Below, in pieces: positions 6,001-9,000 of a stretch of DNA of 32,000 bases. The position numbers are program-made. This stretch comes from Dickeya dadantii NCPPB 898 (GTDB lineage: Bacteria > Pseudomonadota > Gammaproteobacteria > Enterobacterales > Enterobacteriaceae), in assembly GCF_000406145.1 (NCBI RefSeq), contig NZ_CM001976.1, positions 4,639,545 to 4,671,544 on the forward strand, written 5' to 3'. The stretch's first letter is position 1; every line of letters starts with the position of its first letter.

Positions 6001-9000
6001 TTATACCGCCTGACGTAATTGTCCGTTTTCGCCATCAGCCACCACCTGCCCGTCAGAAAGCACAATGGTGCGCTGAGCGCGCATGGCGGAACGCGGATCA
6101 TGGGTAACGATGCAGATGGTCGCGCCGTCCTGATGCAGTTCATCCAGAATATTCATCACCGCTTCGGCGTTGGCGGAATCCAGATTTCCGGTCGGTTCGT
6201 CCGCCAGCAGCAACGACGGCTTGCCGACAATCGCCCGCGCCACCGCCACCCGCTGTTGTTGACCGCCGGAAAGCTGTGACGGGTAGTGGCGCACCCGATG
6301 CGACATGTTGACTTTTTCCAGCGCCTGAATGACCCGCGCTTTCTGCTCCGAGCGCGACAGGTCATTGCGGTAAGTGAGCGGCAACGCCACGTTTTCCGCG
6401 ATAGTCAGGTCGCTTATCAGATTAAATGACTGAAAGATAAAGCCAATTTCCCGGTTGCGCAGGCGGGCCATCTCCCGGCGGCCGATACGTTCTACATCCG
6501 CGCCGTTCAGCCGGTAGCGCCCTTCCGTTGGCGTGTCCAGTAGGCCCATGATGGACAGCAGCGTCGATTTCCCACAACCGGACGGTCCCGCGATAGAGAC
6601 GTATTCTCCCGAGTGAATAGAAAGGTTTATCTTGCTAAGGGCATGCGTTTCAATTTCATCGGTAAGAAAGATTTTATGCACATTATCAAGTTGAACCAGC
6701 ACCGTCATGGGAAATCCTCAGTGTATAAATAGAGTCAGCCTTCCTGAGGCCGAGGGTATCTTACAGGCTGCAGACCACGCACTTTTATCTCTGGTTTTAA
6801 AAATGTGCCCAAAATACCTCCACCCGTCCATGACGACGCCCCTTTCCTTGCGCTGACTGGCCCTTCCGCTGACAGGCTCTCCAGGTCGTTTCCTGTTCAT
6901 CTGCGTCAGACAGCACGCACACGGTCTTCACGAACATCGGTTTCGCGTCTTCTGATCACAGCACAAATCATACCAATTACGTCCTGATCGCAGCCGACGA
7001 CCCGCTCGCCGGGCAGAAGCAGCCTCCGGCAGCCGATGCGCACGTCAGCACGGTGCGCCGGCTCGTGGCAGGGTAGCGTATCCGGCTCGTCATTTGCGAG
7101 ACGAAAAATCCCATGTTTGGCACGACACGATCCCATTAATGGGACGAGTTACAGGTAGGTGTAAGTATTTCCCTTTAAAAACAACCCCTCACAACATGGC
7201 ACACAATTTGCGTTAGACAGATCGCACATCGGACCAAAGGACAATAATTAACCTCAGACTTCGCCGCTGTAAGGATTTTTGGATTTAGCTGGACCAGACA
7301 CGGGGAATCTATTTTTTTTGGGATGACACCATGAGCTTGCAGAACACCTACGCCCATACGTTGGATAATGATATTTTCAACAACAATCTGATTCAGGATA
7401 TGTACCGCCGTCACCCTAATCTGCGCAAAACGCTTGCAGCAAATAATAAAGCGACCAGCCTGGCGGGAATTATTGACTATATCATCGACAACATCGGTAA
7501 CAATATTACGCTGGAAGATCTTGAAGACGTCAGCGGTAAATCAAAGTTTGATATTTGCCGTCTTTTCAATCAGGTCTATAACATTACGCCGATGCGCTGG
7601 ATTTGGCGCGTACGCCTGACGCTGGCAAAAGAGATCATTCAGATTTCGCCCAACTGGTCGCTCACCGATATTTGCTACGCCTGTGGCTTTTCCTCGCTAC
7701 CGCATTTTTCCCGTTGTTTTACCAAGACCTACAACATTCCGCCGCTGAAGTACCGCAAAGCAGTCTCGCAGGAACGGGAAAACGAACCGCCCCGCACCAT
7801 GCAAAACATGAGCTTCGATATTATTTTCGGCAAACAGCGTCATCTGTTCTCACGTCACGTGCTGCTGGATAATATCCAGAACCTCTGTAATTAAATACCG
7901 TCGCCCGCCGTCGCCGATGGCGGGCGCACCAGATGCGTCAACGCCCGGCGGTAATATCATGTCCGCTTTGATGCCGTCGGCATCGGACCGTACCGCGACG
8001 GATCCGCGTCATCAGGCATTGTCGAATACTGAATAAGTGGCGGTATCGGCCTTTCAGTTCCCACTTCAGCATCAGATAAAAACGACAGAATGCGCTGGTG
8101 TACCAGGGGGCTGCGTAAAATCCCCAGATGGCCCAGCCCGCGGGTATAGAACACATCGCTACGGGCAAACGCCCGGTGGATTTCATCCGCCACCGCCGGA
8201 TGGACACGAACATCCTGCCAGTCATGGCAAATCAGCGCCGGACAATCGAGCATGCGATAGAGCGTTTCGCCGACCTGATCGGGATGAAAGCCAAAGCGCT
8301 GTGCATAAATCGCTTTCATGGGCGCCGCCAGCGACGCCGACACCGACGCGCCGGCCAGAAATCGGTCGATCATTTTGCCGAAGTTATCGGGGCTGGCCAG
8401 CAGCACCAGCCGCTCCGCCGCCAGTCCCTGCGCCAGCGCCAGGCTACACACCAGACCGCCGCTGGAATGCCCGACCACCGCATAGAACGGGCCGTAGCGC
8501 TGCCCCAGCCGGATAAGCAGACTGGCCAACTCATAGTTGGACACCCGCTTTCCGTCAGACAGCCCGTGTGCCAGCAGATCCGGCATCACCACGCCGTACC
8601 CCTGCGCTTTTAGCGCCTCGCACAGCGGCCGGAACATAATGCCGCGGCCCTCCCAGCCATGCACCAGCAACACGTTTTTTGCCGGCGCGTCCGCGGGCGG
8701 CGGCACCCAGCGAAACACATACACGTTCTGGTGCTGAAAACAGACCGTCTCCTGTCGAAAATCGGCCAGATAGTCGTGGTCCATCTGCTTGTAAGAGATA
8801 TAACGTGTGGTTTCAAACAGATGTAGCAGATAGCGCGCCGCCAGATGCAGGGAACAACGCTCCAGCAACCACAAATCCGCCAGACGCAGCGCGCGGCACA
8901 GCCGGATGTAATGCGTTTCCGGCTTGATCCGCACTTTAAGCAGCAGCGACGGGCGGCGCTTGAGCTTCACCAGCGCGCGGTAGTAGTTGTACTGGACGAG

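What the first reader, a model, noticed from the sequence alone, without database searches (positions are those of the whole stretch)
7197..7211. Perfect -24/-12 sigma54 promoter in front of the AraC regulator, with the only enhancer-binding protein encoded in the divergent operon
TGGCAC-acaat-TTGC on the plus strand is a full core match with correct GG/GC spacing, about 120 nt upstream of the AraC gene ATG (7331). The sigma54-type response regulator at 1980-3380 is the only enhancer-binding protein in the window. Sequence alone therefore suggests the wiring kinase, then enhancer-binding protein, then sigma54 promoter, then AraC regulator. I found no comparable -24/-12 match on the minus strand upstream of the ABC operon (6709-6900) or the KAS III-like gene (12350-12540). 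The sigma54 step may be confined to the AraC gene.
Basis: partly seen in the sequence, partly recalled or inferred. Interest (0 to 1): 0.7.

Follow-up and report, generated by a model that had tools for sequence, protein, structure and literature searches.

The report
Sigma-54 promoter of quorum-sensing regulator vfmE

Summary
TGGCACacaatTTGC at 7197-7211 (+) is the only exact match in the window (0.06 expected by chance).

The window is the Dickeya dadantii vfm quorum-sensing locus beside the indigoidine genes:
- AraC gene = vfmE
- Enhancer-binding response regulator = VfmH
- Kinase = VfmI

The published TSS of vfmE in strain 3937, supported by both TEX treatment and RNA-seq, lies exactly 12 nt after the C of the GC. 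That is window position 7223.

The -24/-12 element has 0-1 mismatch in all 14 vfmE-type loci examined, from seven genera. It is always preceded by TCCCA-N4-TGGGA palindromes at fixed helical positions.

VfmH carries GAFTDA instead of GAFTGA. All 120 closest homologues share this variant (one has GSFTDA). Their clusters also carry sigma-54 promoters, so the variant does not argue against sigma-54 use.

Published work already shows that VfmH binds the vfmE promoter and is required for its activity. I found no paper that names the -24/-12 promoter, and rpoN dependence has not been tested.

No functional sigma-54 promoter precedes vfmF or vfmA. A decayed relic lies at 6961-6975 (-).

Verdict: an ordinary mechanism in a known cascade, and a useful missing link. 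Interest is modest.

The parts
7197..7211 (+). Sigma-54 core promoter TGGCAC-N5-TTGC (GG 7198-7199 = -25/-24; GC 7210-7211 = -13/-12)
   Evidence: unique exact match. (16-nt invariant block across Dickeya and Lonsdalea). (present in all 14 vfmE-type loci).
7223..7223 (+). [quoted passage not shown]
   Evidence: Forquet 2022, Table S1A. (L079 = CP002038.1; the TSS is L079 5894, 12 nt after the C of the GC at 5882). (alignment with the window, which has one extra T in the 5'UTR).
7131..7144 (.). Proximal enhancer site: perfect palindrome TCCCATTAATGGGA, centre -85.5. Inferred VfmH dimer site.
   Evidence: (a site at -85.5 in every locus of the Dickeya/Prodigiosinella/Lonsdalea group, and one at -81.5/-83.5 in 2 of the 5 more distant clusters).
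7109..7122 (.). Distal enhancer site TCCCATGTTTGGCA (1 mismatch), centre -107.5, 22 bp (two helical turns) from the proximal site
7097..7105 (+). Invariant block CGAGACGAA directly 5' of the distal site. Function unassigned.
7223..7330 (+). 5'UTR of vfmE (108 nt), with the conserved block GACAATAATTAAC at 7240-7252. The IHF site predicted in D. zeae MS2 corresponds to 7246-7258.
   Evidence: (PMC9452768). No Rfam family and no unusual fold.
7331..7894 (+). vfmE, AraC-family master regulator of Vfm quorum sensing (187 aa)
   Evidence: (identical protein in D. dadantii 3937, CP002038.1). (sources name it VfmE).
1980..3380 (-). vfmH, NtrC-type enhancer-binding response regulator (466 aa) with REC, AAA+ (L1 loop GAFTDA) and HTH_8 domains
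   Evidence: sequence. (sources name it VfmH). (GAFTDA in 119 of 120 homologues).
668..1987 (-). vfmI, sensor histidine kinase partner of VfmH
   Evidence: Literature.
6961..6975 (-). Degenerate -24/-12 relic TGGTATgatttGTGC. It sits where related clusters carry the sigma-54 promoter of the transporter/two-component operon.
   Evidence: The published vfmF TSS is at about window 6750, not here.
12456..12491 (-). Second pair of ATCCCAT motifs, 21 bp apart, upstream of vfmA. Inferred VfmH sites at a promoter that is not sigma-54 type.

Best explanation
The element is the sigma-54 (RpoN) promoter of vfmE in the Vfm quorum-sensing locus of Dickeya dadantii.

Proposed mechanism:
1. RNA polymerase carrying sigma-54 binds GG (-24) and GC (-12) and forms a closed complex that cannot open by itself.
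2. When the Vfm signal accumulates, the kinase VfmI phosphorylates VfmH.
3. VfmH dimers bind two TCCCA-N4-TGGGA sites centred at -85.5 and -107.5, on the same face of the helix, and assemble into an AAA+ ring.
4. The ring contacts sigma-54 through its GAFTDA loop by DNA looping and uses ATP to open the promoter.
5. Transcription starts at 7223 and gives a 108-nt leader followed by vfmE.
6. VfmE then activates the other vfm operons and the plant cell-wall-degrading enzyme genes through ordinary promoters.

Status of each step:
- Shown by published experiments: VfmH binds the vfmE promoter, vfmE needs VfmH, the position of the TSS, and VfmH ATPase activity and its inhibition by c-di-GMP.
- Shown here by sequence: the promoter, its geometry and conservation, the enhancer sites, and the intact AAA+ motifs.
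- Inferred: use of sigma-54 itself, which bases VfmH contacts, and looping.
For: 1. Match: a unique exact consensus match, 0.06 expected by chance.
2. [quoted passage not shown] It is L079 5894, exactly 12 nt after the C of the GC, which is window 7223.
3. No rival promoter: the simple scan finds no sigma-70-type -35/-10 anywhere in 6700-7340.
4. Local conservation: ATGGCACACAATTTGC is invariant in 3 Dickeya species and 4 Lonsdalea genomes while the flanks diverge.
5. Wide conservation: a -24/-12 element with 0-1 mismatch precedes the VfmE-type gene in all 14 loci examined. These are D. dadantii (two strains), D. undicola, D. oryzae, D. chrysanthemi, D. poaceiphila, Prodigiosinella, Lonsdalea (three), Rahnella, Pantoea, Pseudomonas and Sodalis. 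The proteins are only 47-51% identical in the distant ones.
6. Enhancer sites: TCCCA-N4-TGGGA sites sit at conserved positions, -85.5/-107.5 or about -146/-105/-83. ATCCCAT occurs only four times in 32 kb, as two oriented pairs upstream of vfmE and vfmA and none before vfmF. That matches the published VfmH binding spectrum.
7. Activator integrity: VfmH has Walker A (GENGTGKS), Walker B (LFLDEIG), FERVG, RIIAATN, FRQDLYYRLN, WPGNIREL and the acidic residues of the receiver pocket (HILIVDDD, DLILMDMNY), plus the Sigma54_activat domain at E = 1.8e-66.
8. GAFTDA is family-wide: 119 of the 120 best homologues, down to 50% identity, have it and one has GSFTDA. Their own operons carry -24/-12 promoters.
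9. Precedent: the GAFTDA activator DVU2106 of D. vulgaris is listed as sigma-54-dependent (PMC4641369).
10. Genetics: the vfmE promoter is inactive in a vfmH deletion mutant, and ihf mutants lower vfmE expression.
Against: No rpoN mutant, in vitro transcription or sigma-54 ChIP data exist for vfmE in anything I could read. RpoN was not recovered in a VfmH pull-down, and the authors questioned whether GAFTDA still contacts sigma-54 (PMC10714721). VfmH is also reported to act at promoters that are not sigma-54 type, namely vfmA and pelD together with CRP, so it has at least one sigma-54-independent mode. The TSS table marks this TSS as '+pred', meaning bTSSfinder also assigned a sigma-70-family promoter. 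That tool has no sigma-54 model as described. vfmE is also reported to be autoactivated by VfmE, which a pure sigma-54/EBP model does not explain directly. The IHF site predicted in D. zeae lies downstream of the TSS rather than between enhancer and promoter.
Confidence: 0.85

Rival explanations
1. vfmE is transcribed by a sigma-70-family holoenzyme. VfmH would act as an atypical activator independent of sigma-54, as FleQ, VpsR or TyrR do, and the -24/-12 match would be non-functional or a relic.
For: VfmH has GAFTDA rather than GAFTGA, and RpoN was absent from the VfmH pull-down. VfmH acts with CRP at pelD and at vfmA, which has no -24/-12 promoter. The TSS is flagged '+pred' by a predictor that covers only sigma-70-family factors.
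Against: The TSS falls exactly 12 nt after the GC. No acceptable -35/-10 pair exists in the region. The -24/-12 bases are the most conserved bases of the whole intergenic region, across seven genera. A true relic looks different: the vfmF-side element has decayed to TGGTAT...GTGC. GAFTDA is fixed across a clade whose operons all carry -24/-12 promoters.
Confidence: 0.07
2. The promoter is sigma-54-dependent but is fired by another enhancer-binding protein of the genome. VfmH would then affect vfmE only indirectly.
For: In Lonsdalea, vfmE with this promoter and the -85.5 site stands alone, with no vfmH, vfmI, vfmF or vfmG within 6 kb on either side. In Prodigiosinella, vfmE lies in a locus separate from the main vfm cluster.
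Against: VfmH is reported to bind the vfmE promoter in vitro. The vfmH deletion abolishes promoter activity. The TCCCA-N4-TGGGA sites co-occur with VfmH-type GAFTDA activators in six genera. They also occur at vfmA, the other reported VfmH target.
Confidence: 0.05
3. The match is a chance occurrence in an AT-rich intergenic region.
For: One exact match turns up in 6 of 100 shuffles of a 32-kb window.
Against: Orientation, distance to the gene, the TSS, invariance across genera and the accompanying enhancer sites all agree with function.
Confidence: 0.01

Closest known systems
Vfm quorum-sensing cascade of Dickeya dadantii 3937 (VfmI/VfmH -> vfmE -> vfm operons and cell-wall-degrading enzyme genes; Nasser et al. 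2013)
   Same: It is the same locus. VfmE is identical to the 3937 protein, and the gene order vfmJIHGF / vfmE / vfmDCBZA-indC-indBA-pecM/pecS is the same. The published primers for the 3937 vfmE regulatory region match 6886-6910 and 7330-7351 exactly.
   Different: The window comes from another D. dadantii strain. It lacks 19 bp upstream of the enhancer and has one extra T in the leader. None of the papers I could read names a -24/-12 promoter or tests rpoN. Nasser 2013 and Lv 2019 could not be read.
Classical NtrC/glnAp2-type sigma-54 promoters with tandem upstream enhancer sites
   Same: GG/GC with 10-nt spacing, a TSS 12 nt after the GC, and two dyad-symmetric activator sites about two helical turns apart at roughly -85 and -107. 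The activator is a REC-AAA+-HTH_8 response regulator phosphorylated by a cognate kinase.
   Different: The L1 loop is GAFTDA, not GAFTGA. The enhancer half-site is TCCCA, which differs from the NtrC site (from memory, TGCACC-N5-GGTGCA). The only product is a second transcription factor, so this is a relay. The activator is also reported to bind c-di-GMP.
LuxO/sigma-54 control of Qrr sRNAs in Vibrio, and HrpX/Y-HrpS-sigma-54-hrpL in soft-rot bacteria
   Same: A cell-density or environmental two-component signal passes through a sigma-54 enhancer-binding protein to a single downstream master regulator, which then controls virulence genes.
   Different: The downstream regulator here is an AraC-family protein, not an sRNA or an ECF sigma factor. 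VfmH is only a distant relative of LuxO: its score is 299 bits against a cut-off of 800.
DVU2106 of Desulfovibrio vulgaris (an enhancer-binding protein with GAFTDA)
   Same: It has the same natural GAFTDA variant and is listed with sigma-54-dependent target operons.
   Different: It is a single-component regulator of cell-division-related genes, with an unrelated domain context.

Membership tests
Sigma-54 (-24/-12) promoter | GG and GC doublets exactly 10 nt apart within TGGCAC-N5-TTGCW | tested here: met
   TGGCACacaatTTGCg matches 15 of the 16 consensus positions; the last position is G, not W.
Sigma-54 (-24/-12) promoter | Transcription starts about 12 nt downstream of the GC | tested here: met
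   The published TEX + RNA-seq TSS of strain 3937 lies 12 nt after the C of the GC. The sequence from the -24 element to the TSS is identical in the window.
Sigma-54 (-24/-12) promoter | No competing sigma-70 -35/-10 pair for the same start | tested here: met
   The simple consensus scan finds 0 sites in 6700-7340.
Sigma-54 (-24/-12) promoter | Strict requirement for an enhancer-binding AAA+ activator bound upstream | tested here: inconclusive
   Published work shows that a vfmH deletion abolishes promoter activity and that VfmH binds the promoter. Conserved dyad sites at -85.5 and -107.5 were found here. No footprint is available.
Sigma-54 (-24/-12) promoter | Expression depends on rpoN, and sigma-54 holoenzyme binds the DNA | not testable with these tools
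   rpoN is present in D. dadantii 3937. No rpoN data for vfmE were found in the searchable literature.
Sigma-54 (-24/-12) promoter | Conservation of the -24 and -12 bases in orthologous regions | tested here: met
   The element is invariant in Dickeya and Lonsdalea. It has 0-1 mismatch in all 14 loci from seven genera.
Bacterial enhancer-binding protein, NtrC-type (VfmH) | Sigma54_activat AAA+ domain with Walker A/B, arginine fingers and sensor motifs | tested here: met
   PF00158 at E = 1.8e-66. The motifs can be read in the sequence.
Bacterial enhancer-binding protein, NtrC-type (VfmH) | GAFTGA loop that contacts sigma-54 | tested here: inconclusive
   The loop reads GAFTDA. 119 of the 120 closest homologues share this variant and one has GSFTDA. 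Their operons carry -24/-12 promoters. PMC4641369 lists GAFTDA among variants that retain activity. The contact with sigma-54 itself is untested.
Bacterial enhancer-binding protein, NtrC-type (VfmH) | N-terminal receiver domain and C-terminal Fis-type HTH | tested here: met
   PF00072 and PF02954.
Vfm quorum-sensing locus of Dickeya | Gene content and order around vfmE, and identity to the reference strain | tested here: met
   VfmE is identical to the protein encoded on CP002038.1, with the same neighbours. The indABC and pecS/pecM genes lie adjacent.

The most novel reading that the evidence does not exclude
RpoN is an obligate and so far unrecognised gate of Vfm quorum sensing, and therefore of Dickeya virulence. 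The module made of a GAFTDA-type enhancer-binding protein, TCCCA-N4-TGGGA enhancer sites and a pair of divergent sigma-54 promoters would define a widespread Vfm-like signalling cassette. That cassette is also present in Pseudomonas, Rahnella, Pantoea, Sodalis and Prodigiosinella. Core Dickeya has lost the transporter-side sigma-54 promoter and the HlyD-type adaptor gene. As a result, the sensor operon is no longer directly autoregulated and depends on the VfmE relay.
Probability: 0.65. Interest if true: 0.5.

Novelty: new member of a known kind. Interest (0 to 1): 0.35.

Why it matters
Vfm is the main quorum-sensing system controlling soft-rot virulence in Dickeya, and the vfmE promoter is the biosensor used to chase its still unidentified signal. 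A sigma-54 promoter at vfmE has four consequences:
- rpoN, IHF and the nitrogen/energy status that modulate sigma-54 would feed directly into virulence control.
- The reported inhibition of VfmH ATPase by c-di-GMP would have a simple mechanistic outlet, because no ATP hydrolysis means no open complex.
- The open question of whether a GAFTDA activator still works with sigma-54 gets a clear, testable answer.
- The inferred VfmH site (TCCCA-N4-TGGGA) and the Vfm-like clusters outside Dickeya give handles for regulon prediction and for identifying the signal in more tractable hosts.

Tried and rejected
1. TGGCAAagtgtCTGT at 12383-12397 (-), upstream of vfmA, as a second sigma-54 promoter. Rejected for three reasons. 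The -12 doublet is GT. The -12 half is not conserved: it reads CCGT in D. undicola and TCCA in D. oryzae. The published vfmA TSS (L079 11030) lies only 2 nt after it. The invariant TGGCAAAGT fits an extended -10 of a sigma-70 promoter instead.
2. CGGCTCgtcatTTGC at 7083-7097 (+), a 2-mismatch candidate. Rejected because it is not conserved in Lonsdalea and has no TSS.
3. TGGTATgatttGTGC at 6961-6975 (-) as a working vfmF promoter. Rejected as functional, because it has 3 mismatches and the vfmF TSS is at about 6750. I kept it as an evolutionary relic because of its homologues in related clusters.
4. A riboswitch or structured leader. There was no Rfam hit at E <= 1, and the fold z-score is 0.3.
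5. A sigma-70 promoter for the 7223 start. The scan found none.
6. Reading Nasser 2013 and Lv 2019 directly. Neither is held, so whether they mention a sigma-54 box remains unknown.
7. The genome-contig scan returned only two Dickeya species plus Lonsdalea. Other species had to be reached through exact-protein look-ups.
8. NCBIfam gave no family-level name for VfmH or VfmE; all hits were below the curated cut-offs.
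Full report
**What is in the sequence.** Positions 7197-7211 on the plus strand read TGGCAC-acaat-TTGC. This is the only exact match to TGGCAC-N5-TTGC on either strand of the window. Shuffles give 0.06 expected matches. With one mismatch allowed there are four matches, which is what chance gives, so only the exact one stands out. The C of the GC lies 120 nt before the ATG at 7331.

**What the locus is.** Pfam scans give the following gene map.

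| Coordinates (strand) | Product |
|---|---|
| 668-1987 (-) | histidine kinase |
| 1980-3380 (-) | REC + Sigma54_activat + HTH_8 response regulator |
| 3561-6143 (-) | MacB/FtsX-type permease |
| 6001-6708 (-) | ABC ATPase |
| 7331-7894 (+) | small AraC protein |
| 7957-9045 (-) | alpha/beta hydrolase |
| 9032-10441 (-) | MATE exporter |
| 11011-11301 (-) | carrier protein |
| 11291-12349 (-) | KAS III-like enzyme |
| 12584-17050 (-) | IndC-type NRPS |

Beyond these lie indB, indA, pecM, pecS, argG and the xylose genes. This is the vfm quorum-sensing cluster next to the indigoidine genes of Dickeya dadantii. The AraC protein is identical to VfmE encoded on CP002038.1, strain 3937. The published primers for the 3937 vfmE regulatory region match 6886-6910 and 7330-7351 exactly. 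The window comes from a different D. dadantii strain. It lacks 19 bp at about 7044-7070 and has one extra T in the leader. VfmH is the only protein in the window with a sigma-54 interaction domain.

**What was already known.**
- According to a review of Nasser et al. 2013, VfmH binds and activates the vfmE and vfmA promoters but not vfmFGHIJ. VfmE binds the promoters of all vfm operons and of the pectinase genes.
- The vfmE promoter is inactive in a vfmH deletion mutant.
- vfmE expression also falls in a vfmE deletion mutant and in a signal-synthase mutant.
- IHF and Fis bind the vfmE promoter region in D. zeae and D. oryzae.

So the kinase -> activator -> AraC wiring is established. The sigma factor is not. 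The 2023 VfmH paper notes the GAFTDA loop, reports that RpoN was not recovered in a pull-down, and says the link to sigma factors needs further work. Searches for vfm together with sigma-54, RpoN or enhancer terms found no paper that describes a -24/-12 box at vfmE. The two primary papers could not be read.

**Transcription start.** The D. dadantii 3937 transcriptome map lists vfmE (4735321-4735884) with a primary TSS at 4735214. Its class is 'strong', meaning supported by both TEX-treated libraries and RNA-seq. In the 3937 locus (L079) this is position 5894. The GC of the element is at 5881-5882 and the GG at 5869-5870. The C is therefore at -12 and the GG at -25/-24, the canonical geometry. 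From the -24 element to the TSS the window is identical to 3937, so the start is window 7223. A simple scan finds no sigma-70-type -35/-10 pair anywhere in 6700-7340.

**Conservation.** I aligned the vfmE upstream regions of D. dadantii, D. undicola, D. oryzae and four Lonsdalea genomes. ATGGCACACAATTTGC is a block of 16 invariant columns, while the flanks diverge clearly between the two genera (71% mean column identity over the whole alignment). Exact-protein look-ups added D. chrysanthemi, Prodigiosinella, D. poaceiphila, Rahnella aceris, a Pantoea, a Pseudomonas and Sodalis ligni. In the last five the AraC protein is only about 47-51% identical to VfmE, and the activator in those whose activator was compared (D. 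poaceiphila, Rahnella, Pantoea) is about 65% identical to VfmH. All 14 loci carry a -24/-12 element with 0 or 1 mismatch on the AraC strand:
- TGGCACacaatTTGC in the core Dickeya species examined and in Lonsdalea
- TGGCACactatTTGC in Prodigiosinella
- TGGCACagcgaTTGC in D. poaceiphila
- TGGCATagtaaTTGC in Rahnella
- TGGCACgttgaTTGC in Pantoea
- TGGCATagcatTTGC in Pseudomonas
- TGGCATagcaaTTGC in Sodalis

The spacer and flanks have drifted, but the GG, the GC and their spacing have not.

**The enhancer.** Two sites lie upstream of the promoter: TCCCATGTTTGGCA (7109-7122) and the perfect palindrome TCCCATTAATGGGA (7131-7144). They are 22 bp apart and centred at -107.5 and -85.5.
- A site at -85.5 is present in every genome of the Dickeya/Prodigiosinella/Lonsdalea group.
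- The more distant clusters have TCCCA-N4-TGGGA sites at about -146, -105 and -83. These are spaced by whole helical turns.
- The heptamer ATCCCAT occurs only four times in the 32-kb window. It forms two same-orientation pairs, one before vfmE and one before vfmA (12464 and 12485, minus strand, 21 bp apart). There is none before vfmF.

This distribution is exactly the published binding spectrum of VfmH and not that of VfmE. I therefore assign the sites to VfmH. This is an inference, because no footprint was available.

**Is GAFTDA a problem?** VfmH has intact Walker A and B motifs, the FERVG loop, sensor I, arginine fingers, sensor II and the acidic residues of the receiver pocket. Its L1 loop reads GAFTDA.
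- Among the 120 best homologues, down to 50% identity and from many gammaproteobacterial genera, 119 have GAFTDA and one has GSFTDA. The variant is a fixed trait of a large clade, not decay.
- In the related clusters the divergent HlyD-ABC-FtsX-activator-kinase operon has its own -24/-12 promoter: TGGCACactctTTGC in Pantoea, TGGCACaatatCTGC in D. poaceiphila, TGGCACgatttGTGC in Rahnella, TGGCACgatgcGTGC in Pseudomonas and TGGCACactctGTGC in Serratia microhaemolytica.
- A homologue only 51% identical, in a Shewanella-type contig, has TGGCATaatagCTGC about 40 nt before its HlyD gene.
- A D. vulgaris activator with GAFTDA is listed with sigma-54-dependent targets, and GAFTDA is listed among the tolerated variants.

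Taken together, the GAFTDA clade is sigma-54-associated.

**Is the sigma-54 step confined to vfmE?** In this window, yes.
- The published vfmF TSS corresponds to about window 6750, 42 nt before the ATG. No -24/-12 element sits there.
- At 6961-6975 (-) there is TGGTATgatttGTGC, which has 3 mismatches. It is conserved in the other Dickeya species (G or A at one position). It lies 370-414 nt from the vfmE ATG, which is where the related clusters have their transporter-side sigma-54 promoter (Rahnella: TGGCACgatttGTGC).
- Core Dickeya also lacks the HlyD-type adaptor gene. I read this element as a decayed relic. That agrees with the report that VfmH does not regulate vfmFGHIJ.
- Upstream of vfmA, TGGCAAagtgtCTGT has GT instead of GC, and its -12 half is not conserved. 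The published TSS lies 2 nt after it. The invariant TGGCAAAGT looks like an extended -10. How VfmH activates vfmA from its ATCCCAT pair, at -110/-89, without a sigma-54 promoter is unexplained.

**Mechanism and confidence.** The best explanation is a standard NtrC-type activation. VfmI phosphorylates VfmH. VfmH oligomerises on the two dyad sites and remodels the sigma-54 closed complex at -24/-12. Transcription starts at 7223. The resulting VfmE then drives the rest of the regulon from ordinary promoters and, through vfmFGHIJ and the signal-synthesis operons, feeds back on its own activator. The reported inhibition of VfmH ATPase by c-di-GMP would block exactly the open-complex step. I put 0.85 on this. 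The main rival is sigma-70 transcription with VfmH as an atypical activator, at about 0.07. It is disfavoured by the TSS geometry, by the lack of a -35/-10 pair, and by the contrast between the invariant vfmE element and the visibly decayed vfmF-side element.

**Novelty and interest.** The cascade is known, the activator is already annotated as sigma-54-dependent, and the mechanism is textbook. What is new relative to the literature I could read:
- the promoter itself and its agreement with the mapped TSS;
- the inferred VfmH recognition sequence;
- the demonstration that GAFTDA is clade-wide and linked to -24/-12 promoters;
- Vfm-like clusters with a bidirectional sigma-54 module in Pseudomonas, Rahnella, Pantoea and Sodalis, although some papers call Vfm specific to Dickeya, and Prodigiosinella has been reported to carry it.

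This is a useful missing link rather than a surprise.

Noticed in passing
window 6961-6975 (-): TGGTATgatttGTGC is a three-mismatch -24/-12 look-alike conserved in the other Dickeya species examined. It sits where Rahnella, Pantoea, Pseudomonas and D. poaceiphila clusters carry a good sigma-54 promoter for the HlyD-ABC-FtsX-activator-kinase operon. Core Dickeya also lacks the HlyD-type adaptor gene. It looks like a decayed promoter.
   Followed up: partly
window 12456-12491 (-) and 12389-12397 (-): A second pair of ATCCCAT motifs, 21 bp apart, lies about -110/-89 from the published vfmA TSS. The promoter itself has an invariant TGGCAAAGT (extended -10-like) and no -24/-12 element. How an enhancer-binding protein would activate this promoter is unexplained.
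   Followed up: partly
L083, L084/L085, L087, L091, L092, L086: Vfm-like clusters occur in D. poaceiphila, Rahnella aceris (on a replicon of about 550 kb), Pantoea sp. SGAir0215, a Pseudomonas contig and Sodalis ligni (AraC gene, HlyD adaptor, ABC, FtsX, GAFTDA activator and kinase; a PPTase in most, and several with KAS III, MATE or P450 genes). The Sodalis copy is partly disrupted by IS66. A transporter/two-component-only version occurs in Serratia microhaemolytica. Some papers call Vfm specific to Dickeya.
   Followed up: partly
L003-L007 (Lonsdalea), vfmE at 6001-6555: Lonsdalea carries an orphan vfmE (84-85% identical) with the invariant sigma-54 promoter and a -85.5 site. No vfmH, vfmI, vfmF, vfmG or vfmA-D lies within 6 kb on either side. 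Which activator fires it there is unknown.
   Followed up: partly
L004 6583-6770 (-), just downstream of Lonsdalea vfmE: The Dickeya vfmA promoter core (GGATAAAAAC...TTGGCAAAGT) is conserved in Lonsdalea britannica although vfmA is absent. About 130 nt further on comes a hairpin followed by a T-run. This could be a small transcript convergent with vfmE, or a promoter remnant.
   Followed up: no
window 7097-7105 and 7240-7252: Two further blocks are invariant between Dickeya and Lonsdalea. CGAGACGAA lies just 5' of the distal enhancer site. GACAATAATTAAC lies at +18 to +30 of the leader and overlaps the IHF site predicted in D. zeae MS2. An IHF site downstream of a sigma-54 TSS would be unusual.
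   Followed up: no
window 7044-7070 and 3561-6143: Two strain polymorphisms. The vfmF-vfmE intergenic region lacks 19 bp relative to strain 3937, and other D. dadantii assemblies share either form. VfmG is only 63% identical to the D. undicola protein, while the flanking VfmF and VfmH are 96-99% identical. This agrees with the published vfmG polymorphism.
   Followed up: partly
window 7268-7330: By eye, the vfmE leader contains several GGA motifs (AAGGAT, TTGGAT, GGGGAAT, GGGATGA at the ribosome-binding site). They resemble RsmA/CsrA binding sites. This was not tested.
   Followed up: no
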